DNA of 64,000 bases from a virus (lineage: Duplodnaviria; Heunggongvirae; Uroviricota; Caudoviricetes), in the IMG/VR virus record IMGVR_UViG_3300036985_002287, positions 30,613 through 94,612 of that record; one strand, 5' to 3'. Below, in pieces: positions 43,438-60,545 of this stretch; position 1 is the stretch's first letter; every line of letters starts with the position of its first letter. Under the pieces are notes generated by a model. The model searched no databases, was not told the origin of the DNA, and saw only the letters and a list, made by a program, of their open reading frames with translations. The position numbers were made by a program, and so were the translations under genes.

Positions 43438-44340
43438 TTATGCCATGCTTACATATAAATGCTGTTGTAGGTTCAGCTTGAATCCATGATCAAGACAGTA
43501 TTTACCTGTGTATTCGTGATTACGTTGATTTTCTACTAAGTTTAATAATCCAGGTTCCCAGAAAGAAATTACCTCATCTACTGTAGATCGTTCTGCCATT
43601 GTGATCTCACCTTTCTCTGCTCGAAGTAATTTAATCTTCTGCGGAAAGTCATTATATACATTCATAGGGGAACAATAGATTTCTTTCTCCGGATTAAGTC
43701 TTTTCCATTCGTGTGCCCATTCCGGGACTGTGCTATATGGACTTACCGGGTCCGCACTCATTACAAACTTAAGGCAGTCGGCCCGCTTAAGAATCATATC
43801 AGTCGGTGCTAAATACTTTGTTGCTACACCGTTCTTTTCCGAACACTTGGGAGAACATACAACAGTGACGTGACTGGCTATATATGGATTGCTTATTGTG
43901 CCATTAGTTTCGATTTGAATTGCCTTAAATACCGGTTCAACACTATCCATAAAACCTAATAAATTAGATTGCAACATCGGCTCGCCACCCGTGATAACTA
44001 AGACAATGTTCGGCCAATGGAAGCTTGGCTGTGGCCGAGGGAAACGAGTCATTGCCCACTCCGGCGGCACTTCTGGCGGTGTCCGTGTAGCCCAATAATT
44101 ACGAATAGTATCAAATGCCTTATGCTGAATTTCATCATATGTCATCCATGTACCGTCATCAAAGAAAGTATCGCAGAAAGAACATGCTAGGTTACACTTT
44201 GCTAATCTGATGAATAGTGCAGGTAGACCAGCATAGGGTCCTTCTCCTTGCAACGTAAAGAACATACTTGTAACATACAAGCTGCCTTTAGGTGCTTTAT
44301 CAAAAAATTTCTTGCCAATTATTGTATTAGTTCCGAACAT
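43438..44340 (-). CDS. queE: 7-carboxy-7-deazaguanine synthase (QueE-like radical SAM)
   Basis: LQGEGPYAGLPALFIRLAKCNLACSFCDT is the QueE N-terminal signature. Confidence 0.7.
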   Translation of the reverse strand: MFGTNTIIGKKFFDKAPKGSLYVTSMFFTLQGEGPYAGLPALFIRLAKCNLACSFCDTFFDDGTWMTYDEIQHKAFDTIRNYWATRTPPEVPPEWAMTRFPRPQPSFHWPNIVLVITGGEPMLQSNLLGFMDSVEPVFKAIQIETNGTISNPYIASHVTVVCSPKCSEKNGVATKYLAPTDMILKRADCLKFVMSADPVSPYSTVPEWAHEWKRLNPEKEIYCSPMNVYNDFPQKIKLLRAEKGEITMAERSTVDEVISFWEPGLLNLVENQRNHEYTGKYCLDHGFKLNLQQHLYVSMA

Positions 44341-44516
44341 TATTCTTTATCCTCGAATTTAACAAGTTTAACTCTGACGCCTTCAAATTCATTATCGAAC
44401 GCAACAGTGACAACTTCCAAAACTTCTTCACAGCCTGTTACGCCACGATCATTTATGTCATTCCAGAACTCATCATCGCCTTCTTCTATAACAAATTCGA
44501 ATATGTATCTTTTCAT
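44340..44516 (-). CDS. 58-aa acidic protein
   Basis: MKRYIFEFVIEEGDDEFWNDINDRG...; AAGGA SD, own promoter, TAATG junction with queE; below track cutoff. Confidence 0.5.
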   Translation of the reverse strand: MKRYIFEFVIEEGDDEFWNDINDRGVTGCEEVLEVVTVAFDNEFEGVRVKLVKFEDKE

Positions 44517-44534
44517 ATATAGTCCTTATCTGTT

Positions 44535-44563
44535 ATTATAGCGATTTTCGATATGTAAGTCAA
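44535..44563 (-). promoter_or_regulatory. promoter TTGACT-N17-TATAAT
   Basis: agtcaa 44558-44563; attata 44535-44540. Confidence 0.65.
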
Positions 44564-44576
44564 GTCACCTATCGAA

Positions 44577-44900
44577 TTATACACCAGATGAGTCGCCCCA
44601 TGTATGCATATATTTAGATAGTCTTATCATCTTATTAACACGGGCTTTTTCTATACCAGAAGCGGTAACACCGAGATTCGCGTTAGTAACCATATCTACC
44701 AACGCCAATACATCTCCTAATTCCATTTCTAAATTTTCAAGATTAGTTGTTGTAGAAGCAGGGTTCTTACCCACTACACCAAATCGTTTAATTTTAGATG
44801 CTGCCTGAATTACTTCGGCACATTCTTCCTGAAGAATATTAAGACATTCTTCCTGATGATCATTTACTTGTTTCAAATTTTTTCTCCCAATTCCATGCAT
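44577..44900 (-). CDS. MazG-like nucleotide pyrophosphohydrolase
   Basis: CLNILQEECAEVIQAASKIKRFG...ELGDVLALV: EExxE/D helices of the small all-alpha MazG family. Confidence 0.6.
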   Translation of the reverse strand: MHGIGRKNLKQVNDHQEECLNILQEECAEVIQAASKIKRFGVVGKNPASTTTNLENLEMELGDVLALVDMVTNANLGVTASGIEKARVNKMIRLSKYMHTWGDSSGV

Positions 44901-45828
44901 GTGATATAATATCTTTTATATTATATTGAGGTTCCCAATGTAATATATTCTTAGCCTTATCTATACATGCCGTCAATATTGCAGGATCTCCTTTGCGAGG
45001 TGCAACATATTCATATATAGGCTCTTTACCAACTACTTCACCTGCATATTTAACTAGCTCTGTTAAACTTATGCCACCGGTACCACCACCTAAGTTAAAT
45101 ATTTCATTACTGAAACCGGCATTAAGGAATTCTATCGCCTGTACGTGACCTTCTGCTAAGTCAGACACATGAATATAGTCCCTAACACAAGTTCCGTCTT
45201 TTGTAGCATAGTTGTTACCGAATATTTGAAATACTTCATTATTCATTATTTTATTACATATAATAGGAATAACATGAGTAGCAGGGCGCTGTGTATATCC
45301 GAATCGACATTCTGGATCAGCACCTGCGGCATTAAAATATCTAAATGTGATATACTTGATACCATATGCTCTTGCATAATCCCTGATCATTAATTCTCCT
45401 GCTGTCTTTGACGATGCATAGGAATTTTCTGGATCATAATACATATCTTCTTTTAGATATAGAGCTCTGCCTTGCCTACCATATAAATTTCCGGTAGAAC
45501 TAAAGACGATATTTTTTATGCCTATAGCGACCATATGATCGAGCATAACCTGCATTTTTACCACATTATTCGTGTAATATTTAGCCGGCTCTGACAGGCT
45601 TTGCGGCACAATATGCTCCGCTGCCAGATGCACTATTGTATCAAATTTAGTTGTATTTGTTTTAATGAAGTCACAATAATCTGATTCAATAACTTCGCCT
45701 GGACCATTCCAGTTCTGTGTATTCTTATCCACAATAGTAATTTTGTGACCTTCTTCGTGTAATTTATATACTACTTGCGTACCTATAAATCCACAGCCTC
45801 CGGTAACTAGAATATTATGTCTTCTCAT
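44860..45828 (-). CDS. NAD-dependent sugar-nucleotide epimerase/dehydratase (GalE-like SDR)
   Basis: VTGGCGFIGTQV Rossmann, YASSKTAGE (YxxxK). Confidence 0.8.
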   Translation of the reverse strand: MRRHNILVTGGCGFIGTQVVYKLHEEGHKITIVDKNTQNWNGPGEVIESDYCDFIKTNTTKFDTIVHLAAEHIVPQSLSEPAKYYTNNVVKMQVMLDHMVAIGIKNIVFSSTGNLYGRQGRALYLKEDMYYDPENSYASSKTAGELMIRDYARAYGIKYITFRYFNAAGADPECRFGYTQRPATHVIPIICNKIMNNEVFQIFGNNYATKDGTCVRDYIHVSDLAEGHVQAIEFLNAGFSNEIFNLGGGTGGISLTELVKYAGEVVGKEPIYEYVAPRKGDPAILTACIDKAKNILHWEPQYNIKDIISHAWNWEKKFETSK

Positions 45829-46202
45829 TAGTTGGGAAAATATTCTAATATTCCACCATTAATATTATCTTCGTAAATCTCTACCTTAATGTATCTACCT
45901 TCATACCTGTATCGAATTTTATCGATAAGCTGTTCTGCTAACATCTCACAGCTCATATAGTCCATTTTTAGTTCTTCCACATATAAGGATTCCAGCCATC
46001 GTCTAAACTGAATGAATTCTATATCACGATTGTTCTGGAATACTTCCACAGTTACAACAAAGTAAAAATAGTGGAAGTGTTCGTGTCCTAAGAAAGATAC
46101 ATCATCCCACTTACCCGTCTTTAAGGTAGGATCTGTTAATGCTTCCGGATACCTATGTGTACCTTCTTTAGTAAATTTTACGTTTATATATCGCTTAATC
46201 AT
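45828..46202 (-). CDS. queD: 6-carboxytetrahydropterin synthase (QueD / PTPS-like)
   Basis: FTKEGTHRYP...LGHEHFHYFYFVVTVE...SCEMLAEQL aligns by eye with E. coli QueD FEAAHRLP...LHGHSFMVRLEI...TSEVLAKW. Confidence 0.65.
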   Translation of the reverse strand: MIKRYINVKFTKEGTHRYPEALTDPTLKTGKWDDVSFLGHEHFHYFYFVVTVEVFQNNRDIEFIQFRRWLESLYVEELKMDYMSCEMLAEQLIDKIRYRYEGRYIKVEIYEDNINGGILEYFPN

Positions 46203-46357
46203 ACAATCTCTTCGATAATACCTAATATCTCTGCAACTACAATCATTGTACCTGCAAAAAACAGATTTCCTGCAGCAAGACTACATCCTGCCACAATGCG
46301 TAATGCGCTCTTAACGAAACTAATTCGTTGATGTAATTTAGGATCTGGCTGTCTCAT
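46199..46357 (-). CDS. 52-aa hydrophobic peptide
   Basis: MRQPDPKLHQRISFVKSALRIVAGCSLAAGNLFFAGTMIVVAEILGIIEEIV; ATGA overlaps on both sides; below track cutoff. Confidence 0.45.
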   Translation of the reverse strand: MRQPDPKLHQRISFVKSALRIVAGCSLAAGNLFFAGTMIVVAEILGIIEEIV

Positions 46358-47142
46358 TTCTTAGCCTTTACTGTTTTCGGTTCTTTCGCAGATAGCGGGT
46401 CTTTCGTAGTACCAGCCGTATATGCTTCAACTGCATCATTAGTAGTCTGAATAGTACTCGTTTTGATGGTCTGGATTTGCGTTTCTTCATCTTCCGGTTT
46501 CAGTTGTGATTTAGCGTCTGGATCAAGTCCTAACTCTGCTTGATTCTTTACATCGCTCAATGGCTTATTTAGCGCCTGTTTGGGCTGCTCTGTTGTAATA
46601 ATAACATCATCTACATATTCACTCCAACTTGTGAAGCGATTGCTATCCGTTACTTCATGATGATTCATACACCATACACCGGGATTTGTTGCACCAAAAT
46701 TAATATCATCAATCTTAATTGTTAAATTAATGTTGGATGTATTTACGTGTGGAATTGCAACACTGAGCACCGGTACAAAGTTTCTGGATTGCCATACATC
46801 CTGATTCAAAATATTAAGTACCATAGCATGTTTATGTGCTGGATAATCTAAAGATACCATAAATCCTGCATTAAGCAAGAACAAGATTTGTTTATCCCAA
46901 TCAGAAGCCAGTGTGTTACCGACCATATACTTTCCGTTTACCATGTCGACAGAATCAAAAGATCTGTTAGCACTCAAGAAGATGTGCTTGACTCCATACT
47001 TTTTAGCATGATCCAAGATAGTTTGTGTATCTTGTAGTCCTACCACAAATAATGTCTTCTTGTTAAATGCAGGTGTCTGCTCAATTTCGGGGCCTACAAA
47101 AAATGTTACGCCTTCATGACCTTTTCTTACAAATTCGCTCAT
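46354..47142 (-). CDS. hypothetical protein in modification cluster
   Basis: 262 aa; no motif recognised; Pro/Lys-rich C-terminal tail. Confidence 0.55.
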   Translation of the reverse strand: MSEFVRKGHEGVTFFVGPEIEQTPAFNKKTLFVVGLQDTQTILDHAKKYGVKHIFLSANRSFDSVDMVNGKYMVGNTLASDWDKQILFLLNAGFMVSLDYPAHKHAMVLNILNQDVWQSRNFVPVLSVAIPHVNTSNINLTIKIDDINFGATNPGVWCMNHHEVTDSNRFTSWSEYVDDVIITTEQPKQALNKPLSDVKNQAELGLDPDAKSQLKPEDEETQIQTIKTSTIQTTNDAVEAYTAGTTKDPLSAKEPKTVKAKK

Positions 47143-47143
47143 A

Positions 47144-48232
47144 TTATTTCCTTAATAATTGGTTTATTAAACCGTATGCTGTGAAGTATTCCTTCAGTAA
47201 ATGCGGGGCCAACCTGCCCTTAGTATCCTTACTAATAATATCATATTGACCCATAGTATTCTTTATCAAAGTTATAATATCGGTCTTATGTTTATAATAG
47301 TTTTCCATGCTACTTGTCCACTCATCTGGATATAAGTATCTTACGTCATACATCTCACTATAACTCAATCTATCAGGTAATAAAGGTATGACACCTAGTA
47401 ATGCACCTTCGAACGGACTTATACCTAATGTTTCTTGTAAATTAGCCGACCACATAATCTTCGACTTAGCTAATAATTTATGATATTCTTGCTTTGTTAG
47501 CTTATTATCCTGGCACACAACAAATTTATACTCGGGTAGTGATTCTGCCAGATCTCTAAATATCTCTACCTGCTTTTCGGGTGCAAGACGATGCGGGAAA
47601 ATAATGATATCTTCTTTTTCGCTAGTATCATATTCCTTAAACAGGTCGGGCATATATTCCATAGGCCATCCGGTGCCTATAATTTTCTTCGACTGAATAT
47701 CATCCAGCATATTGGTACCTAACAGATTCAACATAAACATCTCTATGTGAAAATCCGTAGCAAAATAATTATGATCGAATGAATGGTAGAAGCTACGCTC
47801 TGCATTTCTTACCCACGCAGCAGGTCCTATCAATCTGCCCAGGAAATCGTATGCATCATAACTTCCTGCATGCCACATTCCGTGCAGTGTCCAATTATGC
47901 CCCAACAAGTCATTCATATATCTTAGTTGAACAACAGTGGGATTCCACGCATCTGTAAATAAAAAATGATCGTCGGGTGTTACCTTACCGCTATTATAGA
48001 ATTCTATCCAGTTACACAACTGCGAACTTTTCCAATAATTAGTATCCGAGAAGTTTAAGAACGCACCCGGAGTGACTTGTGTATTTTTTTGAATTCCATC
48101 CACTTGAACAATGTTGAATTTATGTCCGCATTGTTTTTCTAACATAGCAGGAACACGACTGTGCCATTGTCCCGTATATCGCGTCTCTATGGGCTCTATA
48201 CTAAAAATCCAGATTGTCGGTTTTACTTCCAT
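47144..48232 (-). CDS. GT-B-type glycosyltransferase
   Basis: C-terminal QETLGISPFEGALLGVIPLL (E-x7-E-like) and overall two-Rossmann layout. Confidence 0.55.
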   Translation of the reverse strand: MEVKPTIWIFSIEPIETRYTGQWHSRVPAMLEKQCGHKFNIVQVDGIQKNTQVTPGAFLNFSDTNYWKSSQLCNWIEFYNSGKVTPDDHFLFTDAWNPTVVQLRYMNDLLGHNWTLHGMWHAGSYDAYDFLGRLIGPAAWVRNAERSFYHSFDHNYFATDFHIEMFMLNLLGTNMLDDIQSKKIIGTGWPMEYMPDLFKEYDTSEKEDIIIFPHRLAPEKQVEIFRDLAESLPEYKFVVCQDNKLTKQEYHKLLAKSKIMWSANLQETLGISPFEGALLGVIPLLPDRLSYSEMYDVRYLYPDEWTSSMENYYKHKTDIITLIKNTMGQYDIISKDTKGRLAPHLLKEYFTAYGLINQLLRK

Positions 48233-49125
48233 TCAATATATCCTCTAGAATAATTTTGCGGCCTATTAAGCCCCTCATCAAATGCTAGTTTAACTTCTGT
48301 CTCCCTATCATATGACTTTGTCCATAACCCGCTTACATCCAAATCGCCATATCTTAGCAGTTCTTCTGCTAATACCATTGCACTGTAGAATGATTCGTTT
48401 CTCGGACTTGGAAACTTCACATCCACTGCGTTCCAGAGGAACTGTGAGAACGATGTTACTGCTGGCGGATGCTTTTCTGCAGCAAGTACAATTGTAGCAC
48501 GTTCCTTATAAACATTCAAGTTTAGATACTCTGGTTTATCAGATAAGTCTATGATATATTCGAAGCCTTTATTCTGGACATCTTTTAATTGTTTTACTTC
48601 TGCATTATTCTGTTTTGACCAGAAATCTTTGTTGGCTTCGCCGACTACAACTACTTTATTTTCCCAATATCTATCGAGTATTGTATAAACAACTGTTGCT
48701 AAAAATCCTGTACCTAACAATAAAATATCTGCATTTGTAGTCGGCACTATACTCTTTGCAATGTTAATGCCGCAAGCGATAGGTTCTAAAATAAATCTAG
48801 GATTACAATCAGGCACCTTAACAAACATCTTATCCGGGCAGTTATAATAATCAGCAAATGCTGGTTCTCCGCGAGTACCAACATAGTCGCCTTCCTTAAC
48901 AGTTGATATATCTTTACCTACCTTAGTAACTACACCCAGACTTTCGTGTCCTTGTATAGTCTTGGGTAGCATCTGAAATGTACCACAATACATATCGATG
49001 TCAGAACGACAAACACCTGTATAGATAGACTTTACTTCGATCTCATTTGATTTGGGTTCAGGTTTATTCCATTCTTCCTCTATGATGTCTTTGTTGCCTG
49101 TAGTATAGAAAAGTCTTGTCTTCAT
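48223..49125 (-). CDS. zinc-dependent medium-chain dehydrogenase/reductase
   Basis: GVCRSDIDMY (catalytic Cys) and GHESLG motifs. Confidence 0.7.
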   Translation of the reverse strand: MKTRLFYTTGNKDIIEEEWNKPEPKSNEIEVKSIYTGVCRSDIDMYCGTFQMLPKTIQGHESLGVVTKVGKDISTVKEGDYVGTRGEPAFADYYNCPDKMFVKVPDCNPRFILEPIACGINIAKSIVPTTNADILLLGTGFLATVVYTILDRYWENKVVVVGEANKDFWSKQNNAEVKQLKDVQNKGFEYIIDLSDKPEYLNLNVYKERATIVLAAEKHPPAVTSFSQFLWNAVDVKFPSPRNESFYSAMVLAEELLRYGDLDVSGLWTKSYDRETEVKLAFDEGLNRPQNYSRGYIEWK

Positions 49126-49985
49126 TAAAATCTCTCCAAAAATCTATGAATTTCTAAATCCAATGAATAGCTATCGGATGTATTTGTTAACATTTTACCG
49201 TATGCTTCTGCGGGACATAATCCAAACACCCATTCATATGTTGTGCCGTCTTTAAAATACAAAGTGATAGATTGTTTATCATACCCTTCTTTCCATGCGG
49301 CATATAATTTTACAGAAATTCCGTCTATTGTTGCAATTGCAAATGCTGTATCATCTACGTCATATACACCGTTAGGATAAACTGTTCCATAATCTGTAGA
49401 AGAGATTGACGAGAGATCCCATCTCTGATAACTAGATTGTTTAAATACCGATTTCTTTACAGTATCTTCACCAAATAATTTTACAGCAAAACAATACAGG
49501 TGTGGCATTAAATCTCGGGAGATACCTCCAAAGGAAGAATCCTTATCTGTAAACCAACTACCGGGATTAGGAATACGATTATCATTTATCCAATTAATGT
49601 CGACGCCTATTACTTTTTTGCTTCGCATTAATTCCAATACATCGCCATAACTATCTCTGTACAAGTTATTTTTTACTAAATGGAATGTTGTGTTGGTATA
49701 CTTATATTTAAGTCGACTCCATGCCCATGAATCTACAAGGCCCGGCTTCTCTACGAAGATTTGTTTTGTACCTGTCTCTGCCAATCTTTCTGCGATAGGT
49801 CCGTGCGTAAAATTGGGTGTACAAATTACTGCTATATCGTATGCTTTGTTGATTTCCGATGCATCTTTATATATCGCATTATCTGTTCTTGCATCTAATA
49901 CATCTATATCATAACCTAACTTTTGTAATTCGGGCCAATAGACGTTAGCGCCTATTCCACCGAACCCTGCCAATAATGCCTTCAT
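49125..49985 (-). CDS. Gfo/Idh/MocA-family oxidoreductase
   Basis: N-terminal MKALLAGFGGIGANVY Rossmann, ICTPNFTH, FVEKP. Confidence 0.6.
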   Translation of the reverse strand: MKALLAGFGGIGANVYWPELQKLGYDIDVLDARTDNAIYKDASEINKAYDIAVICTPNFTHGPIAERLAETGTKQIFVEKPGLVDSWAWSRLKYKYTNTTFHLVKNNLYRDSYGDVLELMRSKKVIGVDINWINDNRIPNPGSWFTDKDSSFGGISRDLMPHLYCFAVKLFGEDTVKKSVFKQSSYQRWDLSSISSTDYGTVYPNGVYDVDDTAFAIATIDGISVKLYAAWKEGYDKQSITLYFKDGTTYEWVFGLCPAEAYGKMLTNTSDSYSLDLEIHRFLERF

Positions 49986-50231
49986 TTAATCTCCTGAATG
50001 TTTTAATAGATACACTATCATATCTGATTCTTGTAATAGTATTGCTTGTTTTGGATATATAAGATAAGATTTTTTTCCATACGATGATATAGATATAACC
50101 CGTATTAGTTTAGGAGTTACTTTAATTACTGCACCCAATACTAGATTATTGTTTCTACAAAAGGCAACGTGATTTCCTACTGAAATCGCATTGTCTAATA
50201 AATCAGTATGGACTATGCTTTTTGCCGCCAT
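49986..50231 (-). CDS. hypothetical protein
   Basis: 81 aa ORF. Confidence 0.45.
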   Translation of the reverse strand: MAAKSIVHTDLLDNAISVGNHVAFCRNNNLVLGAVIKVTPKLIRVISISSYGKKSYLIYPKQAILLQESDMIVYLLKHSGD

Positions 50232-50499
50232 ACATTGTCTGCAACTCTTTTATTATTTCGTTATCTATTTCTTTGGTTATCTCTGCTGACATAACAGCCA
50301 AGATCTCATCTTCTAAACGCTCGTCGAGTGTTTTATAAGGTTGGCTTAGACGGCGAACAATCTCGTCTGCCCGCTCGTCTTCAGTCATATCTTTGACGTT
50401 CTTAAAATACTCCCGAGGACGGATATCCTGGATGTAATTAATCGATATACTTTCGGATATACCGACAGGCTTTATCTTATCTGTCATAGTCGATAACAC
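50203..50499 (-). CDS. hypothetical protein
   Basis: 98 aa ORF. Confidence 0.45.
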   Translation of the reverse strand: MLSTMTDKIKPVGISESISINYIQDIRPREYFKNVKDMTEDERADEIVRRLSQPYKTLDERLEDEILAVMSAEITKEIDNEIIKELQTMYGGKKHSPY

Positions 50500-50773
50500 G
50501 AATCAACTTATCACCCATCCAATGAGAACAATTTTCATTATCATCTTTTGCTAAGTCTTTGAGCATATTGTCGAATTCTTTCTTAGTGATTTCTCTTCCA
50601 TCAATGATAGTTTCGCCCAAGTGGCGCTGTGTTACTTCTGCGAACATATCAGCTTCACTGCCGGAACTAACCATTGTTACTTCGTCATAAGCATGTTCGA
50701 GCTCATCTGCTTCAATAACATAACGGCATCTAAATGTAGAAATTGTATCTACGATGTATAGTTTCTTTTTCAT
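50477..50773 (-). CDS. hypothetical protein
   Basis: 98 aa ORF. Confidence 0.45.
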   Translation of the reverse strand: MKKKLYIVDTISTFRCRYVIEADELEHAYDEVTMVSSGSEADMFAEVTQRHLGETIIDGREITKKEFDNMLKDLAKDDNENCSHWMGDKLIRVIDYDR

Positions 50774-51000
50774 ATTATTCTCTTATTACTTTTATGCCGT
50801 ATTTTGGCATGTTTTTTTCTTATAGGTCTTATATAAAAATCTGGATCATGCGAATCCGCGAATATTGAGTGGGCACATATAAGCCCGTTCAACATTCCGT
50901 GCATATATTGTACACTAGGGTCGCCGGCAATTACACAATCCGTTTGTATACCGATCATGTTCTCTAGAGTACTAAGATCCTTTTGTAATCTCTCATTCAT
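50770..51000 (-). CDS. hypothetical protein (MNE start)
   Basis: 76 aa; ATGAATGA junction with the DpdA-like gene. Confidence 0.45.
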   Translation of the reverse strand: MNERLQKDLSTLENMIGIQTDCVIAGDPSVQYMHGMLNGLICAHSIFADSHDPDFYIRPIRKKHAKIRHKSNKRII

Positions 51001-52561
51001 CTTCTTCAGCTAAATGTACATCGTCCATATCAGCCATATCTTGCACTGTTGGTAATTCATCAACTGGTTCTGTAGTAGGTTGTCCCCACATATCGACATT
51101 TTCTATAGTAGTAACAGTTTTCTTATCACCAAAACTAATACTTTCCAAGAAGTCCTTATAAGTTTCTAACATTTTATATGGGTCCTTATTATTTGGATCA
51201 AATAATTCCTCAACAAACTTATTAAAATAAATTATATCATTCGGAACAAAATCGCTCTTATTAGAAACCTTACCTTTCTTCCCTCTATACTGATACCAAT
51301 CTCTAAAATCTACACTTGGCAGCGTAGCATGAGCTATGTCTGCCAACCGATTGATTTCTTGAACTGCATGTATATGATTATACACATTGTGGGCCATAAC
51401 AAGAGCATAGCTAGTTGTATCCCAGCTTGTTTTACCTATCTTTTTATTCTTATTTGTATCAGTTGGACCCATAACACAAATGTCACCACTTGTTAATCTG
51501 TCATTAATGGGACTTTGATAAGGCATGGCATATCTTGTATTTTTCAATCCCTTATCATCCAAGCCCTTACCCATAGAATAAGTCAGTCTATCTGACGAGA
51601 AGTGAGTGTAGTCGTAAGATAAAGCATATCCACCTGCTGCAACAAACGGTGATGCAGCATCAAAGCTAATGCTAATGTTAGGATTGTGATACTTCTTAAT
51701 TTGTCTTTCGATGGATGTTAAGTAACAAGCCCAATCGAGTCTGCCAATACCCAAGAAGTGAATCCAGTCTTTACCTTCCAGTAAACCATCATCACGTAAG
51801 TTCAGTAATCGTTCGAGTGTTACTCTCATACGGCGCATATTACAACCTGCAAATGCCCAGCCTTCTAATGTCCTATCACGCGAATAACCCAATGCTTCTA
51901 CTATATCTGGTTGGCTAAACACTTTTACAGATTCGTACCACACTTTGGAATTTTCATTATCGCTACCCGATAATACATTAAGAAATTTTGTAGCACCGGG
52001 AATACGATTCTTCATGAAGTAATGAAGATTACATTCAGTAACATCCAGACATTCTTGAAAACTTGTTAAACCAGTCTTTGCACTAAATGGAGGTTTAGCG
52101 GCAAATGCAGGTACATCTAATGTCATAGACCAATCCGAAGTGTGTTCTAAGTATCGTAGAATTTCTTCTCTTAGCTTATCGCCCTCGGGACCTTTAACAG
52201 TTTTCCAATCTAACTTAATAACACCGGTCGCTACCTGAAACCCGCCCGAATCGCCAACAATAATTGTTTTCTCGCGATTACGCTTATGGATCATCGGCTC
52301 TTTAATATCACATCTATCCAGACGTCTTTCGGCGTGCCCTGCTGAAAATAATCCGTAGCCATAATGATAGTAAGAATTATCAGGTTCTAAAAAGTCCAAA
52401 CCTTGTATACCATGTTCGAATTTTTCCGGCACACGTTCTTTAGGAATAAATGTCGGATCAGAAAGATCCTTTCCTAAGTGAGTAGTATAGAACCCGCTGA
52501 TTGCAGGTAGATACTTAGCCCACTTACCGTCGTCGTGACGCTTTGTTAGATTAATACCCAT
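50993..52561 (-). CDS. tRNA-guanine-transglycosylase-fold protein, DpdA-like DNA transglycosylase candidate
   Basis: IIVGDSGGFQV (TGT catalytic DSGGFQ), WAFAGCNM and IHFLGIGRLD resembling TGT YAIGGL / LMGVG segments; acidic tail. Confidence 0.6.
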   Translation of the reverse strand: MGINLTKRHDDGKWAKYLPAISGFYTTHLGKDLSDPTFIPKERVPEKFEHGIQGLDFLEPDNSYYHYGYGLFSAGHAERRLDRCDIKEPMIHKRNREKTIIVGDSGGFQVATGVIKLDWKTVKGPEGDKLREEILRYLEHTSDWSMTLDVPAFAAKPPFSAKTGLTSFQECLDVTECNLHYFMKNRIPGATKFLNVLSGSDNENSKVWYESVKVFSQPDIVEALGYSRDRTLEGWAFAGCNMRRMRVTLERLLNLRDDGLLEGKDWIHFLGIGRLDWACYLTSIERQIKKYHNPNISISFDAASPFVAAGGYALSYDYTHFSSDRLTYSMGKGLDDKGLKNTRYAMPYQSPINDRLTSGDICVMGPTDTNKNKKIGKTSWDTTSYALVMAHNVYNHIHAVQEINRLADIAHATLPSVDFRDWYQYRGKKGKVSNKSDFVPNDIIYFNKFVEELFDPNNKDPYKMLETYKDFLESISFGDKKTVTTIENVDMWGQPTTEPVDELPTVQDMADMDDVHLAEEDE

Positions 52562-52569: not shown

Positions 52570-53313
52570 TTACGCCTTGCCAGCTGGCAGAAGATAGGTA
52601 TACTTTCCTATACCACTGTCAATATCAATCTTCAATACGCCCATGTCGGAGAAGCTCATAGTAGCTGTAGCTGTCTCTGTCAATTTCAAGATACTGAGAA
52701 CTTGTGACAAAGGCCACGACCACTGATGCTTCAATGTACCTGTTACATTTTCTGCAAAAGAAATATCCATCTTATCTGCAGGACCCGATCCCACAGCAAA
52801 TACCAATGTACCTTTAGTATTCACACTAACAGTAAATCTCTTTTCTAAAGAACCTAATGCGCCTTGCATATAAGACAGTTCGGTAATTCTCTTCTTCTCT
52901 GGTGTAATAACTACATTCCATGTTGCACCCTTAAATGGTGGAACTTTAATTTGTTCATTAACCATTGACTCGCCCATAAAGCGATAATTTGCAGAAGATT
53001 CGCCGCTGTCAAACTTAACTCCAGTTGGAACAGTAACACCCGCACGAGATTCTGTAACTACTTCCGTAGTTGCCTTTGATCCAGAATATGGTGGAAAGTC
53101 AATAAAGCTCTTTAACACTGGAATGCGAGATAATCCCACAACAGAATCAATACCTGCGATAGGCTGATACATAGTTCCAAAAATAACAACAGTCTTATCT
53201 GCATCTAGTGCTTCAATCTTTGCATCTGTTGCTGTACCTACAATTTTTACCATATCAATAAAGCCTAACGAATTTGTGTGCTTAATGATATCCTTAAATG
53301 AATCTAATAACAT
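52570..53313 (-). CDS. possible sliding clamp (gp45-like)
   Basis: 247 aa, immediately downstream of DNA polymerase; size and loose resemblance only. Confidence 0.35.
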   Translation of the reverse strand: MLLDSFKDIIKHTNSLGFIDMVKIVGTATDAKIEALDADKTVVIFGTMYQPIAGIDSVVGLSRIPVLKSFIDFPPYSGSKATTEVVTESRAGVTVPTGVKFDSGESSANYRFMGESMVNEQIKVPPFKGATWNVVITPEKKRITELSYMQGALGSLEKRFTVSVNTKGTLVFAVGSGPADKMDISFAENVTGTLKHQWSWPLSQVLSILKLTETATATMSFSDMGVLKIDIDSGIGKYTYLLPAGKA

Positions 53314-53333
53314 GTGAGATCTCCCTTTTGTTT

Positions 53334-53362
53334 AGTGTATAATATTTCGTGACTGTTGTCAA
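53334..53362 (-). promoter_or_regulatory. promoter TTGACA-N17-TACACT
   Basis: tgtcaa 53357-53362; agtgta 53334-53339; AGGGAG SD. Confidence 0.45.
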
Positions 53363-53367
53363 ACGTT

Positions 53368-56316
53368 TCAGCAGTTGCTGAAGTCAAACAACGTTTCCAG
53401 GTGTGCATGTTCTTTGTTGGTTCTGCTAAGATCCCATTTAAGCACACCTAATAAATTTTCGACCTTCTTATCGACAATGCCTGCCATCATATCGTCACTG
53501 TCGAATGGCAAACTTAAGAACCATTCCGGTAAATGTGTTTCGTCTACAGGATATGCAATACTAGACAATCTATTTTCGGTTGTTTCTTTTAACTTACAAA
53601 CAATAATCTTTTGGCCGTCGACGATACGCATTGCATGTTGGTCTTGATTAATTTCCTTTAACTTGTTCCATGCAAGACTAGCAGATACATGACCCGGTAC
53701 ATGCAAGTTTCCGGATTCTATACCCTTCAACTTTTTAACACCGGCATCTTCTATCTTTTCTCTATAATGCGTTAATCTATTAACTGCGCGAGGAGTGCCT
53801 TGCTGCCATGGTTTCATGCTTTCGAATGTTTCCTTGAATAGCTTAATCTTTTCTATGACAGCATTCTCGCCCTTACCAGTCAATGTATCCATCAATATTT
53901 CTGATAAGAATTTTTGAACAAACTTAGGTGTATCAGCTCTCTTCAGATCCAGTCCCATTGCCTTTACCTTACCTACTTTGCCACTAGCATCAAGTCGAAT
54001 TCCGTCCTTATCATACATAAGACAAGCATAACGTTTCTTAACAATCCATAATCCTGTTTCGGACACTGTTTCACGAGAACTAGCAATTACACCAGTGGAT
54101 CGCTTAATGGGCACATTTAGTCGTCCTAATAAGAACTCCGGGAATGTTGCAGATACTGCTTTGGCTAAGGAATTGTACAAATCTACAATGCTTTCCTTTG
54201 TCCACTCTATCTCACCCCTGTCAATCTCTTCTTTAAGAATAGGATATGCGGAGAAATAACACGAGTCAGTATCGCCATATACGATGCACTTACCATAATG
54301 ATCATATTCATTTGTTATCATCTCATTAGTCTTAGCAGCCATATGTTTAGTAATTGTTCTGCCAGTTAATGTAGTAGATTGTCCGAGGCGTTGATCAAAG
54401 AATCTGCTTCCAGCATTTAACAAAGCGCCGTATGCGGAGTTCAGGTTAATTTTCTTAACTAACTGCCTCTTGTCCCAGAAACCAATGATAGATTTCAGTG
54501 ACTTCTGGTCACGATGAATTGCTTTACCATCTTTTACCATTAAGTTATGTTGGTTCATATATTGAACAACACGCTTCTTATGACCTTCGGAAATAATTTC
54601 TTTCAGTTTCTTTGGTCTATATGCTTCGGAATCCAGGAAAGGATCTGCCTTTGATTCTACATCACTTATGTCATCGTTCGTAAACAAATCTGCAGAAACC
54701 TTTACGCCGTCGATCTTAGCATTATCTTCTATATCCTGATAATTTACCATGAGACCCTGAAGTATCTTACGCTCGTTATACCAACGAGTTAATAGACTAG
54801 GAATAACACCGTCTGTATCAGTTTTGAATATTGTGCCATTTGCGCTAATGCACCAAGGCTGTCCACTCTCAAATATTAAGTCATGAAGTTCTTTACCTGT
54901 CACTTCAAATTCGGAACCATCTTCCATATCTAATATCATAGATGTGCCGATATCTTGATTATAGAAATCTTCCATCTCTAACACATTAAATCTGTCGTTC
55001 CACCAAGATGCAAATGTATATTTTGCGCCTTTCTTTTCCCAGTCAGCAATTGCCTGATTAGTACGATCCAATCTAATCTGCCCGATAATCATTTCAGGGC
55101 TCATATTAAGAGTTCTAATAACAGATGGATACAGAGACTTCATGTCGGTAGAAGCGATCCATCTATGCAAACCCTTCTTAGGTGTTGCTACCCACCCGCC
55201 TGCTGCTCTAGTTTCTCTATCTTCGCCATGCTTCTTATCCGGGCACACCATATTACGGTTGTGCGCTTCTATAAGAATGTTTTGATCAGTAACTGCCACA
55301 ACACCCATAATTGTCTGAATTAACACACAACTCGAATGTGCAATAGAATTAGCCAAATCAATAAACTGTAATTTTCTATCAAGCTGATCCAGCAGTCGTG
55401 TATCTTGTATGTTATACTCTAAAAACTTCTTAAAATCGTCATTGTATAATTCATCTAGAGTACCTTCATATTGTACTTTAGTTTCGCCTAGTTCAATTTC
55501 TGCAATTGCATTAAGCGCATAACTATGCCGTTCTTCATAGTTGAACTTCTTATAAATTTGCATATAGTCGATAGATATTCTGCCGATCAGATCGTATGTA
55601 AATGCTTCTTTTCCGCCTCTGTCGTATTTTCTTTCTTTAGGCATTTGTTCCCAGAGACATAGCTTTCGGGCCGCTTGTTTTCCTAATACTTTCTTTATAC
55701 GATTAACTACATACGGAATATCATATACTTCCGAATTCCATCCAGATAATACATCGGCATCTTCTACAATGTCCATGAAGGCATTTAACATCTCGCCTTC
55801 ATCTTTGAATAATACAGTATTACCTACCTGATTAGCAATTTCATTTGCTTCTTCCCAGGTATGTGTATCTGGTGGAATAGCCAAACAAATAATTTCATCC
55901 TGCCACTGTAAGTGTACTGATATAGCTGTTATGTAATTATCTGCATCGGCTGGATCAGACCAACCACGTTCTTTATCGAAACTAGTTTCTATATCGAAAA
56001 ATGCTACATTTAATTTAGGTGCTTCGCCACTGTGATAATTATGTTCGAGACATCGAAAGACAGGATCTACGTCAGATTCCCAACTCTTGACATTACTGGA
56101 TAATGTTTTAACAAGTTTTTGTTTTTCGCCAAATGAGCGCGGCGTTACTTTTTTGACTGCGTCGCCAAAAATACTTTTGTGTGAACCACGCGGATCAGTG
56201 ACAAAGAAATGGAAATCAGGTTGGTACTCTTTATAAACACGAGCCCCGTTTATTCTTTCTACTATCCTGATTGTTTCTTCTTCGCCCGATCTCTTGAAGG
56301 AGGCATCAATATACAC
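53368..56316 (-). CDS. family-B DNA polymerase with 3'-5' exonuclease domain
   Basis: FDIETS (ExoI), DMKSLYPS (motif A), KINLNSAYG (motif B), YGDTDS (motif C). Confidence 0.95.
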   Translation of the reverse strand: MYIDASFKRSGEEETIRIVERINGARVYKEYQPDFHFFVTDPRGSHKSIFGDAVKKVTPRSFGEKQKLVKTLSSNVKSWESDVDPVFRCLEHNYHSGEAPKLNVAFFDIETSFDKERGWSDPADADNYITAISVHLQWQDEIICLAIPPDTHTWEEANEIANQVGNTVLFKDEGEMLNAFMDIVEDADVLSGWNSEVYDIPYVVNRIKKVLGKQAARKLCLWEQMPKERKYDRGGKEAFTYDLIGRISIDYMQIYKKFNYEERHSYALNAIAEIELGETKVQYEGTLDELYNDDFKKFLEYNIQDTRLLDQLDRKLQFIDLANSIAHSSCVLIQTIMGVVAVTDQNILIEAHNRNMVCPDKKHGEDRETRAAGGWVATPKKGLHRWIASTDMKSLYPSVIRTLNMSPEMIIGQIRLDRTNQAIADWEKKGAKYTFASWWNDRFNVLEMEDFYNQDIGTSMILDMEDGSEFEVTGKELHDLIFESGQPWCISANGTIFKTDTDGVIPSLLTRWYNERKILQGLMVNYQDIEDNAKIDGVKVSADLFTNDDISDVESKADPFLDSEAYRPKKLKEIISEGHKKRVVQYMNQHNLMVKDGKAIHRDQKSLKSIIGFWDKRQLVKKINLNSAYGALLNAGSRFFDQRLGQSTTLTGRTITKHMAAKTNEMITNEYDHYGKCIVYGDTDSCYFSAYPILKEEIDRGEIEWTKESIVDLYNSLAKAVSATFPEFLLGRLNVPIKRSTGVIASSRETVSETGLWIVKKRYACLMYDKDGIRLDASGKVGKVKAMGLDLKRADTPKFVQKFLSEILMDTLTGKGENAVIEKIKLFKETFESMKPWQQGTPRAVNRLTHYREKIEDAGVKKLKGIESGNLHVPGHVSASLAWNKLKEINQDQHAMRIVDGQKIIVCKLKETTENRLSSIAYPVDETHLPEWFLSLPFDSDDMMAGIVDKKVENLLGVLKWDLSRTNKEHAHLETLFDFSNC

Positions 56317-56645: not shown

Positions 56646-57054
56646 TTAGTTGCAGGCGCATCGGGCAACTTCCTTGCCACGATAATCAGCAATTGCTGCC
56701 TTCACTGCATCCTCTGCAAGAATTGAGCAATGTATCTTAACCGGAGGTAGTGCCAATTCTTCTGCAATTTGCGAATTCTTAATAGTTGCTGCTTCGTCTA
56801 GTGTCTTACCTTTTACCCATTCGGTAACTAAAGAACTCGACGCAATAGCTGACCCGCAACCATATGTCTTAAATTTTGCATCTTCGATGATGCCTGTAGC
56901 GGGATTTACTTTTATTTGGAGTTTCATTACATCTCCGTTAACCGCACGCTGGGGCGCCGACAATGCCGGTTCCAACGTGCGTATTCTCCTTATCTAAATT
57001 CCCGACATTACGGGGGTTTTCATAGTGGTCAATCACTTGTTTACTATAGGACAT
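56646..57054 (-). pseudogene. iscU: IscU Fe-S scaffold gene interrupted by a 7-nt insertion (in-frame TAA after Cys of GAPACG)
   Basis: ATG 57054: MSYSKQVIDHYENPRNVG...GAPACG-stop; removing TAACGGA restores ...ACGDVMKLQIKV...TYGCGSAIASSSLVTEWVKGK...PPVKIHCSILAEDA. Confidence 0.7.
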
Positions 57055-57628
57055 TTTTAGTTCTCCTTCTCTCATGAGCAAGTTTCATGGATATAGATCT
57101 CTTGAGACGTGTTTCTTCGGAGACCTCCTTACCTCTGTTTCCTGCTTGAATCTTTAATTTAGTTTCCGCGGAATGTTGTTTACCTAACATGGGGCCGGGT
57201 TTACCATATCCGTGATGTTTTTCTCCAGAAAACTGTTTTAATTTTGTTTTTTGTTCTTCAGACATAATCCTGCCAAAACAAACATTCTTCTCCCCGAGCA
57301 TAGATTCGCTTTTCTTACGTTTTTCTTCTTCTGTCCAGGCTCTTCCACCCTTAGAATGGCCTATCTTACCCACATTACCTTCGCCGCCATCGGATTTATT
57401 CTGTAATATGCCTGTATTAATATCTTTTCTTCCCCACCACGCAATCATCCTGCGTTCTATCGCCCAGGCACCTATCTCGGATAATTTAGATTCAAGAATC
57501 ACAATTTTCGACTTATCGTTAGGTCTGTTTATGTTTGTGTGCTTTTCCCAGGCTCTCCTGTTTTTACCTTTCCCTATGTAGTAAGGTTTACCGGAGTTAC
57601 CTATATATGCATATACATAGAACATCAT
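57044..57628 (-). mobile_element. GIY-YIG homing-endonuclease gene (Seg-like, NUMOD3-type repeats)
   Basis: YVYAYIGNSGKPYYIGKG (GIY-YIG); repeated G..HSxETKxK motifs; free-standing between sigma-like gene and iscU, overlapping both. Confidence 0.75.
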
Positions 57629-58761: not shown

Positions 58762-58790
58762 ATTGTATTTATCTTATTTATTGCGTAGTC

Positions 58791-58817: not shown

Positions 58818-58832
58818 CAGACATTATCAATA

Positions 58833-59555: not shown

Positions 59556-59567
59556 TTTTACCTCCTA

Positions 59568-60533: not shown

Positions 60534-60545
60534 CGATATTATCCT

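What the first reader, a model, noticed from the sequence alone, without database searches (positions are those of the whole stretch)
43438..52561. DpdA-like transglycosylase, QueD, QueE and MazG-like genes interleaved with a glycosyltransferase and three sugar redox/epimerase genes: possible novel (glycosylated?) 7-deazaguanine DNA hypermodification
Directly downstream of the polymerase and putative clamp, a single co-oriented and mostly overlapping block encodes the following genes in order:
- a 522-aa TGT-fold protein with the catalytic DSGGFQ motif (DpdA-like)
- four small ORFs
- a Gfo/Idh/MocA oxidoreductase
- a Zn-dependent MDR dehydrogenase
- a GT-B glycosyltransferase
- a 262-aa unknown
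- a 52-aa hydrophobic peptide
- QueD
- a GalE-like epimerase
- a MazG-like pyrophosphohydrolase
- a 58-aa acidic protein
- QueE

Established knowledge is that phage DpdA with FolE, QueD, QueE and QueC installs preQ0-type 7-deazaguanines in DNA as anti-restriction. QueD plus QueE without QueC stops at 7-carboxy-7-deazaguanine. Here no QueC or FolE is recognisable in the window, and sugar-nucleotide enzymes plus a glycosyltransferase sit between the que genes. That interleaving suggests, by inference only, a sugar-decorated or otherwise extended deazaguanine, or two co-regulated DNA modifications. I am not aware that such a combination has been described.
Basis: partly seen in the sequence, partly recalled or inferred. 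Interest (0 to 1): 0.8.

Follow-up and report, generated by a model that had tools for sequence, protein, structure and literature searches.

The report
Deazaguanine DNA-modification genes with a glycosyltransferase
An uncultured giant phage carries a tight gene block for replacing guanine in its DNA with a 7-deazaguanine, and a sugar-transferring enzyme travels with that block in several unrelated phages, so the DNA base may carry a sugar, which has not been reported for any purine.

Summary
The block is real: 16 co-oriented, mostly overlapping genes on the minus strand (43438-52561), just downstream of the polymerase and a clamp-like gene.

- **Confirmed calls:** QueE, GalE, MazG, Gfo/Idh/MocA, the Zn-dehydrogenase and a GT4-type GT-B glycosyltransferase.
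- **Correction:** the "QueD" is not QueD. It carries the DpdL signature (LxxxHxHxF instead of CxxxHGH) and is homologous to phiST DpdL, the predicted CDG decarboxylase of a phage whose G is fully replaced by 7-deazaguanine.
- **Missing genes:** no FolE, QueC or canonical QueD lies in the window.
- **New link:** in six cultured phage groups (PA5oct-like, Phosso, ACP17, BCSR5, BUDD, X1) the glycosyltransferase lies within 3 kb of DpdL. It is there in 38 of 39 metagenomic relatives.
- **Variable genes:** GalE is frequent. Gfo and MDR occur in only 15% of relatives.

A sugar-bearing deazaguanine is plausible but chemically unproven. I found no publication describing one.

The parts
50993..52561 (-). 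DpdA-family (TGT-fold) base-exchange enzyme, 522 aa. Motifs: DSGGFQ at 52235-52252, TLDVP at 52109-52123, HFLGIG at 51743-51760, SFDAASP at 51647-51667. Disordered acidic C-terminal tail.
49986..51000 (-). Four small ORFs (76, 98, 98 and 81 aa) of unknown function. They are variably conserved in relatives.
   Evidence: No significant Pfam hit, only PHROGs of unknown function. Present in 18-56% of 39 related loci.
49125..49985 (-). Gfo/Idh/MocA sugar oxidoreductase, 286 aa. Accessory gene found only in a sub-lineage.
   Evidence: Pfam PF22725 and PF01408 above cut-off. PDB relatives: inositol 2-dehydrogenase and DgpA. Present in 6 of 39 related loci, always together with MDR.
48223..49125 (-). 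Zn-dependent MDR dehydrogenase, 300 aa. Accessory gene found only in a sub-lineage.
   Evidence: Pfam ADH_N 1.8e-11. phrog_2640. PDB alcohol and polyol dehydrogenases at 1e-10 over the GroES-like domain. GVCRSD and GHE motifs present.
47144..48232 (-). GT-B (GT4-like) glycosyltransferase, 362 aa. HRLAPEK (R-x4-K) at 47573-47593 and E-x7-E at 47408-47434. The N-terminal acceptor domain is unique to the family.
46354..47142 (-). Orphan conserved protein, 262 aa: a core of about 175 aa plus a variable lysine-rich tail. It is specific to this module.
   Evidence: 39 of 39 related loci. 891 homologues and 667 clusters at 50% identity, with no Pfam or PDB match. Among cultured phages it occurs only in PA5oct-likes and ACP17 gp122.
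46199..46357 (-). 52-aa hydrophobic ORF, unknown function.
   Evidence: No significant family. Present in 6 of 39 related loci.
45828..46202 (-). Motif LGHEHFHYF at 46065-46091.
   Evidence: L38, H42, H44 and F46 are invariant. The DpdL signature LxxxHRHxF versus QueD CxxxHGH is taken from PMC10516641. Homologous to phiST CGPG_00067 (2e-8) and ACP17 gp125 (9e-29). No Pfam PTPS hit.
44860..45828 (-). UDP-hexose 4-epimerase GalE, 322 aa.
   Evidence: TIGR01179 302.8 bits against a cut-off of 262.3. Pfam Epimerase 1.5e-48. GGCGFIG and YASSK motifs. Present in 31 of 39 related loci.
44577..44900 (-). MazG-like nucleoside triphosphate pyrophosphohydrolase, 107 aa.
   Evidence: Pfam MazG 30.5 bits against a cut-off of 22. 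phrog_4856 5.5e-19. A MazG-like gene also sits in the phiST cluster.
44340..44516 (-). 58-aa acidic ORF, unknown function.
   Evidence: No family hit.
43438..44340 (-). QueE (7-carboxy-7-deazaguanine synthase), 300 aa. CNLACSFC at 44173-44196 and TLQGEG at 44239-44256.
   Evidence: phrog_2076 1.7e-47. The five best NCBIfam matches are all QueE models. PDB QueE 6nhl 2e-12. Homologous to the QueE of ACP17, BCSR5 and Phosso at 1e-47 to 1e-105.
52570..56316 (-). Upstream context: family-B DNA polymerase (53368-56316) and a clamp-like protein (52570-53313). Their position upstream of the DpdA-like gene is conserved in all relatives.
   Evidence: The Phosso homologue is annotated as a sliding clamp.

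Best explanation
The block is a phage module that replaces guanine in phage DNA with a 7-deazaguanine derivative. It very likely also uses a dedicated glycosyltransferase.

Proposed steps:
1. CPH4 comes from the host or from genes outside the window. No FolE or canonical QueD is in the window.
2. QueE converts CPH4 to 7-carboxy-7-deazaguanine (CDG).
3. The DpdL-type T-fold protein processes CDG. In phiST this family is predicted to decarboxylate CDG to 7-deazaguanine.
4. The 522-aa DpdA-family enzyme swaps the free base for G in duplex DNA after replication. Its gene lies directly behind the polymerase and a clamp-like gene.
5. MazG trims a nucleotide pool.
6. The GT4-type glycosyltransferase transfers a hexose onto the base or onto a precursor. 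GalE supplies the UDP-hexose epimer. In this sub-lineage Gfo and MDR further tailor the sugar. The orphan 262-aa protein is an unassigned partner.

What is shown: the folds and families, the conserved motifs, and the gene linkage.

What is inferred: every chemical step, the acceptor atom of the sugar, and that the product ends up in DNA.

My confidence by layer:
- About 0.85 that this is a deazaguanine DNA-modification module.
- About 0.6 that the GT belongs to it.
- About 0.4 that virion DNA carries a glycosylated deazaguanine.
For: **Enzyme identities**
- DpdA/TGT fold and invariant catalytic-type motifs.
- A 29%-identical homologue in Vibrio phage 2.275.O sits beside QueF, YhhQ, QueC, Gat-QueC and FolE.
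- QueE identity.
- DpdL signature and homology to phiST DpdL. phiST DNA has dG fully replaced by dDG (PMC10516641).
- The GT retains R-x4-K and E-x7-E and has a GT4 fold.

**Linkage of the GT to the pathway**
- The GT lies 0-2.8 kb from DpdL in PA5oct-likes, Phosso, ACP17, BCSR5, BUDD and X1. These genomes are 156-469 kb.
- In PA5oct, ACP17, BUDD and BCSR5 the GT also sits next to a TGT-fold gene. In ACP17 and BUDD that gene is a different, DpdA3-like family.
- Among 39 non-identical IMG/VR relatives, DpdL and the 262-aa protein are present in 39, the GT in 38 and GalE in 31. There are 15 different gene orders.
- In BUDD and BCSR5 the GT is joined by a PIG-L-like deacetylase, which fits real sugar chemistry. 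That hit is sub-threshold.

**Experimental context**
Against: - No chemistry is known for any phage that carries the GT. The PA5oct base was not identified.
- 7-Deazaguanine has no hydroxyl group, so the acceptor for a GT4 enzyme, which normally makes O-glycosides, is unclear.
- DpdL activity has never been demonstrated, even for phiST.
- A 27%-identical GT homologue in the PhiXhv/Ep032 phages sits with GlmS and a BshB-like deacetylase and has no que genes nearby. The wider GT family is therefore not exclusive to deazaguanine clusters.
- Many DpdL phages, phiST included, lack the GT.
- The N-terminal acceptor half of the GT model has low confidence.
- No source of CPH4 is encoded in the window.
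Confidence: 0.5

Rival explanations
1. The module makes plain 2'-deoxy-7-deazaguanosine DNA, as in phiST. The GT, GalE, Gfo and MDR do something unrelated, such as modifying the host envelope, glycosylating virion proteins or blocking superinfection. They merely share an early or middle transcription unit with the modification genes.
For: - phiST reaches 100% dDG without any GT.
- Jumbo phages are known to carry surface-polysaccharide clusters (PMC7824862).
- The PhiXhv phages have the GT without que genes.
Against: - The GT stays within 3 kb of DpdL in six cultured phage groups, although the neighbouring TGT-fold genes belong to at least two divergent families.
- It stays in 38 of 39 relatives despite gene-order shuffling.
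- There is no flippase, polymerase, lipid-carrier transferase or other envelope gene in the block.
- There is a single GT rather than the several paralogues typical of surface-glycan clusters.
Confidence: 0.3
2. There are two independent DNA modifications. Deazaguanine replaces G, and the GT glycosylates a different base such as a hydroxymethyl- or hydroxy-pyrimidine, as in T-even, RB69-like or TET-type systems.
For: - All known DNA glycosyltransferases act on hydroxylated pyrimidines (titles and general knowledge).
- Some jumbo phages carry several modification systems.
Against: - No thymidylate-synthase-like hydroxymethylase, TET/JBP dioxygenase or cytosine methyltransferase was found among about 55 window ORFs, nor in the clusters of ACP17, BUDD, BCSR5 and Phosso.
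- The T4 alpha-GT match is no better than matches to dozens of unrelated GT4 enzymes.
- Only 64 kb of a much larger genome was examined.
Confidence: 0.07
3. The GT and DpdL act on free small molecules, making a glycosylated deazapurine or pterin metabolite. The sugar never reaches DNA.
For: - T-fold enzymes bind pterins and purines.
- Bacteria make deazapurine natural products (listing).
Against: - The 5zer score is not distinguishable from other GT4 hits.
- A DpdA-family base-exchange enzyme is always present in the module, directly behind the polymerase and a clamp-like gene.
- A glycosylated free base could itself be the DpdA substrate, which would merge this rival with the main explanation.
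Confidence: 0.08
4. The TGT-fold enzyme acts on tRNA, either host tRNA or the phage's own, rather than on DNA.
For: - The fold is shared with tRNA-guanine transglycosylases.
- The window encodes three tRNAs.
Against: - The top structural match is the DNA enzyme DpdA, and all viral structural neighbours are DpdA-type proteins.
- None of the three phage tRNAs (Leu-taa, Met-cat, Arg-tct) has a GUN anticodon of the kind that receives queuosine.
- DNA of the relative PA5oct is restriction-resistant at G-containing sites.
Confidence: 0.05

Closest known systems
Cellulophaga phage phiST dDG system: DpdA3 + DpdL + FolE/QueD/QueE + MazG-like (Cui et al. 2023, PMC10516641)
   Same: - It has QueE, a DpdL-type T-fold protein with the LxxxH-x-HxF motif, a TGT-fold DpdA and a MazG-like pyrophosphatase.
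- The cluster lies next to the DNA polymerase.
- There is no QueC.
- The predicted route is CDG to 7-deazaguanine, followed by post-replicative base exchange.
   Different: - phiST has no GT, no 262-aa protein and no GalE, Gfo or MDR.
- Its DpdA3 is 259 aa and only remotely related to the 522-aa protein (hhalign 94.9%, 21% identity; Foldseek E 1e-3).
- phiST encodes its own FolE and QueD. The window does not.
Acidovorax phage ACP17 and Pseudomonas phage PA5oct clusters (sequenced phages; the modified base is chemically uncharacterised)
   Same: - Both have the same GT family (38-45% identity), DpdL (49-57%) and a homologue of the 262-aa protein.
- ACP17 QueE is closely related to the window's QueE.
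- PA5oct has the same DpdA-like family (48%) in the same place behind the polymerase and clamp-like gene.
   Different: - ACP17 uses a DpdA3-like TGT protein (gp123) and encodes FolE and QueD.
- Neither phage has Gfo or MDR in the cluster, and GalE is not in the cluster.
- PA5oct QueE belongs to a different QueE lineage (no phmmer hit to the window's QueE).
T-even and RB69-type phage DNA glycosyltransferases acting on 5-hydroxymethyl- or 5-hydroxy-cytosine
   Same: A phage-encoded GT-B enzyme uses an NDP-sugar. In the known systems it decorates a non-canonical base in DNA after replication as an anti-restriction measure. The sugar chemistry diversifies between related phages.
   Different: - The acceptor here would be a purine analogue with no obvious hydroxyl group.
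- There is no hydroxymethylase.
Glycosylated queuosine in eukaryotic tRNA (mannosyl- and galactosyl-queuosine). Recalled from my own knowledge, not checked here.
   Same: It is a precedent for a sugar attached to a 7-deazaguanine derivative in a nucleic acid.
   Different: That case is RNA, not DNA. The sugar goes on the cyclopentenediol hydroxyl of queuosine, a side chain this phage cannot make because it has no QueC, QueF, QueA or QueG.

Membership tests
TGT/DpdA superfamily | TGT-type (beta/alpha)8 barrel fold | tested here: met
TGT/DpdA superfamily | Conserved acidic catalytic-type motifs: DSGG(F/Y/L)Q, and the later Asp in (F/Y)D(S/A) | tested here: met
   D104-S-G-G-F-Q109 and S299-F-D301-A-A-S-P. 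D104 and D301 are invariant in 22 sequences. hhalign aligns them to DSGGLQ and ISYDSTTH of DpdA3-like proteins. Their equivalence to the TGT catalytic Asp residues rests on my knowledge of TGT, not on a residue-level superposition.
TGT/DpdA superfamily | Sequence match to Pfam PF01702 (TGT) or to solved TGT/DpdA sequences | tested here: not met
   No Pfam, PHROG or NCBIfam hit. No PDB sequence hit, even with a 22-sequence profile.
TGT/DpdA superfamily | Structural Zn site (CxCxxC...H) | not tested
   No such motif is obvious. C362, H391 and H396 are conserved, but their geometry was not examined.
DpdA3 subfamily (phiST CGPG_00065, ACP17 gp123) | Detectable sequence-family membership | tested here: inconclusive
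   hhalign gives 94.9%, E 4e-8, 21% identity over 175 columns. An HMM of four DpdA3-like proteins hits PA5oct (2.6e-8) but does not hit the window protein at E<1. tblastn of the window protein does not reach phiST or ACP17. Foldseek ranks the nt-1 protein (1.9e-8) above phiST DpdA3 (1.1e-3). It looks like a separate clade.
DpdA (function) | Exchange of guanine for a 7-deazaguanine base in duplex DNA | not testable with these tools
   Indirect evidence only: PA5oct DNA resists G-containing restriction enzymes.
QueD (6-carboxytetrahydropterin synthase) | CxxxHGH motif with the catalytic Cys; match to Pfam PF01242 | tested here: not met
   The motif is L38-G-H-E-H42-F-H44-Y-F46. Leu is invariant where QueD has Cys. 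No PF01242 hit. hhalign to three phage QueDs gives only 42% probability.
DpdL (predicted CDG decarboxylase) | LxxxHRHxF motif in place of CxxxHGH, and homology to phiST CGPG_00067 | tested here: met
   The motif definition comes from PMC10516641. L, H, H and F are invariant in the family. The middle residue is R in most members and F in the window and PA5oct. phmmer to phiST DpdL gives 2e-8 and to ACP17 gp125 9e-29. tblastn 3e-11. Locus tag confirmed.
DpdL (predicted CDG decarboxylase) | Decarboxylation of CDG to 7-deazaguanine | not testable with these tools
   This has never been shown experimentally. Heterologous tests of phiST and ACP17 DpdL failed.
QueE | Radical-SAM CxxxCxxC cluster plus the QueE N-terminal motif, with best matches to QueE models | tested here: met
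   C49-x3-C53-x2-C56 and F-TLQGEG. The three best PDB hits are all QueE (2e-12 to 2.5e-6). The five best NCBIfam hits are all QueE models, but below the equivalog cut-offs (71.8 against 200). phrog_2076 1.7e-47.
GT-B / GT4-like glycosyltransferase | GT-B fold with the nucleotide-sugar-binding motifs R-x4-K and E-x7-E | tested here: met
Phage DNA glycosyltransferase (T4 alpha/beta-GT type) | A co-encoded pathway that makes a hydroxylated pyrimidine acceptor | tested here: not met
   No hydroxymethylase, TET or related gene was found in the window or in the related clusters.
GalE | Score above the TIGR01179 equivalog cut-off; GxxGxxG and YxxxK motifs | tested here: met
   302.8 bits against 262.3. 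GGCGFIG and YASSK.
MazG | Pfam PF03819 above the gathering score | tested here: met
   30.5 bits against 22. EExxE and ExxD motifs. Substrate unknown.

The most novel reading that the evidence does not exclude
Phages of this clade, together with PA5oct, ACP17, Phosso, BCSR5, BUDD and X1, put a sugar on a 7-deazaguanine in their DNA. That would be the first glycosylated purine-type base in any genome.

The sugar might be joined by an unusual bond, because 7-deazaguanine offers no hydroxyl group. Candidates are a C-glycoside at the electron-rich C7 or C8, or an N- or O-glycoside on the pyrimidine ring.

The lineage-specific tailoring genes (GalE, Gfo/MDR, a PIG-L-like deacetylase) would then diversify the sugar in an arms race with modification-dependent nucleases and glycosylases.
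Probability: 0.35. Interest if true: 0.9.

Novelty: new variant of a known kind. Interest (0 to 1): 0.72.

Why it matters
- **Chemistry:** every DNA sugar modification known so far sits on hydroxylated pyrimidines. A sugar-bearing 7-deazaguanine would extend DNA glycosylation to the purine side and would imply new enzymology for the acceptor bond.
- **Abundance:** the module is not a curiosity. The DpdA-like family has at least 1,497 clusters at 90% identity, and the GT family saturated the 8,000-candidate limit. Members lie on contigs of up to 388 kb.
- **A tractable model:** the module occurs in PA5oct, a phage studied for therapy whose G modification is known to exist but is chemically unidentified. 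The question could be settled by one LC-MS run on an available phage.
- **A possible explanation for a published failure:** DpdA + DpdL from ACP17 gave no dDG in E. coli. The GT and the 262-aa partner were left out. This link is my inference.
- **Practical consequences:** such DNA affects sequencing and restriction mapping of these phages. It is also recognised by END nucleases and possibly by deazaguanine-specific glycosylases.

Tried and rejected
- **Whole-block DNA search:** megablast of the block against 50,697 phage records found nothing.
- **GT:** PDB sequence searches with a single sequence and with a profile gave nothing.
- **T-fold protein:** PDB searches with a single sequence and with a profile gave no significant hit. 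A Pyrococcus PH0634 chain appeared at E 0.9. hhalign against three canonical phage QueDs was weak, at 42%. The T-fold assignment therefore rests on homology to phiST DpdL and on that paper's HHpred result.
- **262-aa protein:** homologue search, an exhaustive profile search of 1.84 billion representatives, a Pfam scan of ten distant members and a PDB profile search all failed to link it to any known family.
- **FolE, QueC, QueF and QueD in the window:** searches with phage queries and Pfam scans of about 55 ORFs were negative.
- **FolE elsewhere on relatives' contigs:** I scanned IMG/VR with a FolE profile.
- **Promoter and terminator scans:** counts do not exceed shuffled expectation.
- **Literature:** searches for a glycosylated deazaguanine in DNA found none. 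The library lacks many subscription-journal papers.

Full report
**1. What is there**

The region 43438-52561 holds 16 ORFs, all on the minus strand. Transcription runs from the 522-aa gene (50993-52561) down to QueE (43438-44340). Neighbouring ORFs overlap by 1-41 nt or are 0-1 nt apart. The exception is a 60-nt gap before the 58-aa ORF. A family-B DNA polymerase (53368-56316) and a 247-aa clamp-like protein (52570-53313) lie immediately upstream.

The window belongs to an uncultured phage. Megablast against 50,697 phage records finds nothing, while proteins 99-100% identical occur on metagenome contigs. The nearest cultured relative is the Pseudomonas jumbo phage PA5oct, at 43-57% protein identity across this region.

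**2. Gene by gene**

*522-aa protein.* It has no hit in Pfam, PHROGs or NCBIfam, and none among PDB sequences even with a profile.
- Against predicted viral structures its neighbours are all DpdA-type proteins. They include the Vibrio phage 2.275.O homologue, the Achromobacter phage Motura TGT, a Vibrio phage nt-1 protein and phiST DpdA3.
- D104-SGGFQ, D149 and D301 (in SFDAASP) are invariant across 22 family members. A profile-profile comparison aligns them with DSGGLQ and ISYDSTTH of DpdA3-like proteins (94.9%, E 4e-8).
- In Vibrio phage 2.275.O the 29%-identical homologue sits directly upstream of QueF, YhhQ, QueC, Gat-QueC and FolE.
- I conclude it is a DpdA-family enzyme. It is too divergent to file safely under DpdA3, and it may be a separate clade.

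*QueE.* This call is sound. The CxxxCxxC cluster and the TLQGEG motif are present. The three best PDB hits are all QueE, and the five best NCBIfam hits are all QueE models.

*GalE, MazG, Gfo/Idh/MocA, MDR.*
- GalE passes the curated equivalog cut-off.
- MazG and Gfo/Idh/MocA pass Pfam cut-offs.
- The MDR protein matches Zn-dependent dehydrogenases over its GroES-like domain, with the Zn ligands present.

*362-aa protein.* It is a GT-B glycosyltransferase of GT4 type.
- R-x4-K (HRLAPEK) and E-x7-E are invariant.
- Its N-terminal acceptor half is strongly conserved within the family but modelled with low confidence.

**3. The correction: the 'QueD' is DpdL-type**

- The 124-aa protein has no PTPS/QueD hit.
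- Its family has an invariant L-x3-H-x-H-x-F motif. Most members read LxxPHRHxF. The window and PA5oct read LGxxHFHYF.
- Cui et al. 2023 define exactly this change, from CxxxHGH in QueD to LxxxHRHxF, as the signature of DpdL. DpdL is the T-fold protein they predict to decarboxylate CDG to 7-deazaguanine in phiST, whose DNA has dG completely replaced by dDG (PMC10516641).
- The window protein is homologous to that very phiST protein, CGPG_00067 (2e-8), and to ACP17 gp125 (9e-29).
- So the window has QueE and DpdL but no CPH4 synthase. It also has no FolE, QueC or QueF among about 55 ORFs scanned. Those functions must come from the host or from the rest of a genome that is probably well over 150 kb.

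**4. Is the sugar machinery part of the pathway?**

*Cultured phages.*
- tblastn finds the GT family in 22 records and DpdL in 29.
- All 17 records that have both place them 0-2.8 kb apart. They fall into six groups: PA5oct-likes, Phosso, ACP17, BCSR5, BUDD and X1.
- These genomes are 156-469 kb. A random placement within 3 kb has roughly a 4% chance or less per genome (my arithmetic).
- The neighbouring transglycosylase is not always the same family. PA5oct has the window's type. ACP17 gp123 and the BUDD 'queuine tRNA-ribosyltransferase' are DpdA3-like and are not hit by the window protein.
- ACP17 reads QueD, FolE, a homologue of the 262-aa protein, DpdA3-like, GT, DpdL, QueE.

*Metagenomic relatives.*
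- Among 39 non-identical IMG/VR loci with at least 9 kb downstream of the DpdA-like gene, the 262-aa protein and DpdL are present in 39, the GT in 38 and GalE in 31.
- QueE is present in 22 and MazG in 12. Some copies probably lie beyond the flank.
- Gfo and MDR are present in 6, always together and always between DpdA and the GT.
- Fifteen different gene orders occur. Linkage that survives rearrangement argues for function rather than frozen synteny.

*Tailoring genes.* In BUDD and BCSR5 the GT is accompanied by a PIG-L-like deacetylase (E 4.7e-5, below the cut-off) and a PAPS-reductase-type ATP-pyrophosphatase. This echoes the GT4 plus deacetylase pairs of mycothiol and bacillithiol synthesis, a parallel I draw from my own knowledge.

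*Evidence on the other side.*
- A 27%-identical GT in the PhiXhv/Ep032 phages sits with GlmS and a BshB-like deacetylase and has no que genes nearby.
- Many DpdL phages, phiST included, have no GT.

My reading is that the GT is an add-on to the DpdL branch in some lineages. GalE is a frequent helper. Gfo and MDR are sub-lineage tailoring genes.

**5. Mechanism and its weak point**

The proposed order is:
1. CPH4 is supplied from outside the window.
2. QueE makes CDG.
3. The DpdL-type enzyme processes CDG.
4. The DpdA-family enzyme exchanges the base into DNA behind the replisome.
5. The GT transfers a sugar from a UDP-hexose.

Every chemical step is inferred. The weak point is the acceptor. 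7-Deazaguanine has no hydroxyl group, and GT4 enzymes normally make O-glycosides. There are three possibilities:
- the linkage is unusual;
- DpdL or the orphan 262-aa protein creates a different handle;
- the GT acts on a precursor.

MazG may deplete a canonical nucleotide, but nothing here tests that.

**6. What is already known**

- Iyer et al. 2021 noted a 'deazaguanine synthesis/incorporation system' in PA5oct (PMC7824862).
- A 2025 preprint showed that PA5oct DNA resists five restriction enzymes whose sites contain G, and that it is attacked by nucleases sensing hypermodified DNA. The preprint did not identify the base (PMC12191111).
- Cui et al. 2023 described DpdL, DpdA3 and dDG. They reported that ACP17 and phiST DpdA + DpdL gave no dDG in E. 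coli.
- None of these papers, and no other paper I could find, mentions the glycosyltransferase or a glycosylated deazaguanine in DNA.

**7. Verdict**

The deazaguanine DNA-modification reading is strong.
- The sugar link is supported by conserved linkage across lineages but has no chemical evidence. The CDG end-point argument falls away.
- This is a new variant of a known kind of system. It is abundant and directly testable on cultured phages.

Noticed in passing
window 27845-28627 (-): A second NAD-dependent epimerase/dehydratase (260 aa, Pfam Epimerase 8.8e-26) lies about 16 kb from the block. The phage therefore carries more nucleotide-sugar enzymes than the block alone.
   Followed up: no
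window 6810-10050 (-): A radical-SAM/SPASM protein (394 aa, 8866-10050) is followed by a 390-aa protein with no family hit and by a TctC-like periplasmic binding-protein homologue (295 aa). This is an unexplained three-gene set.
   Followed up: no
window 15301-15978 (-): A phage-encoded GGDEF diguanylate cyclase domain protein (225 aa, Pfam 6.2e-40). It may manipulate host c-di-GMP signalling.
   Followed up: no
window 23795-26167 (-): A MoxR-type AAA+ ATPase (25073-26167) sits next to a metallopeptidase-vWA protein (DUF2201_N + DUF2201, 23795-24997). Iyer et al. describe this pair as typical of 'group 2.2' jumbo phages.
   Followed up: partly
window 26635-27138 (-) and 33364-33807 (-): A Macro-domain protein (167 aa) and a protein matching the malonyl-CoA decarboxylase C-terminal domain, Pfam MCD (147 aa). 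Both are possible counter-defence or modification enzymes.
   Followed up: no
window 57625-63828 (-): A protein with sigma-70 region 4 (378 aa), a ClpB-like double AAA+ chaperone (738 aa) and a protein with a DnaJ C-terminal domain (174 aa) lie upstream of the polymerase.
   Followed up: no
window 6193-6651, 22578-23165, 57044-57628 (-); 11054-13366 (-): Two HNH endonucleases and a NUMOD3 homing-endonuclease-like gene. Three tRNA genes: Leu-taa, Met-cat and Arg-tct. The polymerase gene is intact here, whereas in PA5oct it is split by a homing endonuclease.
   Followed up: no
L090 7383-8956 and L091 7137-8975 (Xanthomonas phage BUDD, Burkholderia phage BCSR5): In these clusters, three genes lie directly upstream of the GT gene: a PAPS-reductase-type ATP-pyrophosphatase, a PIG-L-like deacetylase (sub-threshold) and a small conserved protein. 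This suggests a different sugar or linkage chemistry from the one in the window.
   Followed up: partly
L093 5750-8984 (Xanthomonas phage PhiXhv-15): GlmS, a BshB-like deacetylase and a 27%-identical homologue of the GT form a cluster with no que or TGT genes nearby. This may be a different glycosylation target.
   Followed up: partly
L002 13699-14811 (Vibrio phage 2.275.O): The gene after the DpdA-like homologue is not a GT. It is a 370-aa protein with a weak Amidoligase_2 match (E 1.8e-4), next to a full preQ1-type gene set. This hints at yet another deazaguanine derivative.
   Followed up: no
window 50993-51120 (-), residues 480-522 of the DpdA-like protein: A disordered, strongly acidic C-terminal tail (…DMADMDDVHLAEEDE). 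Given the gene's position behind the polymerase and clamp-like gene, it could be a docking tail for the replisome or SSB. That idea is speculation.
   Followed up: no
window 44535-44563 (-): The best sigma-70-like match in the region (11 of 12 positions) lies in the only sizeable gap of the block, just upstream of the 58-aa ORF and QueE. Overall promoter-like counts do not exceed shuffled expectation.
   Followed up: no
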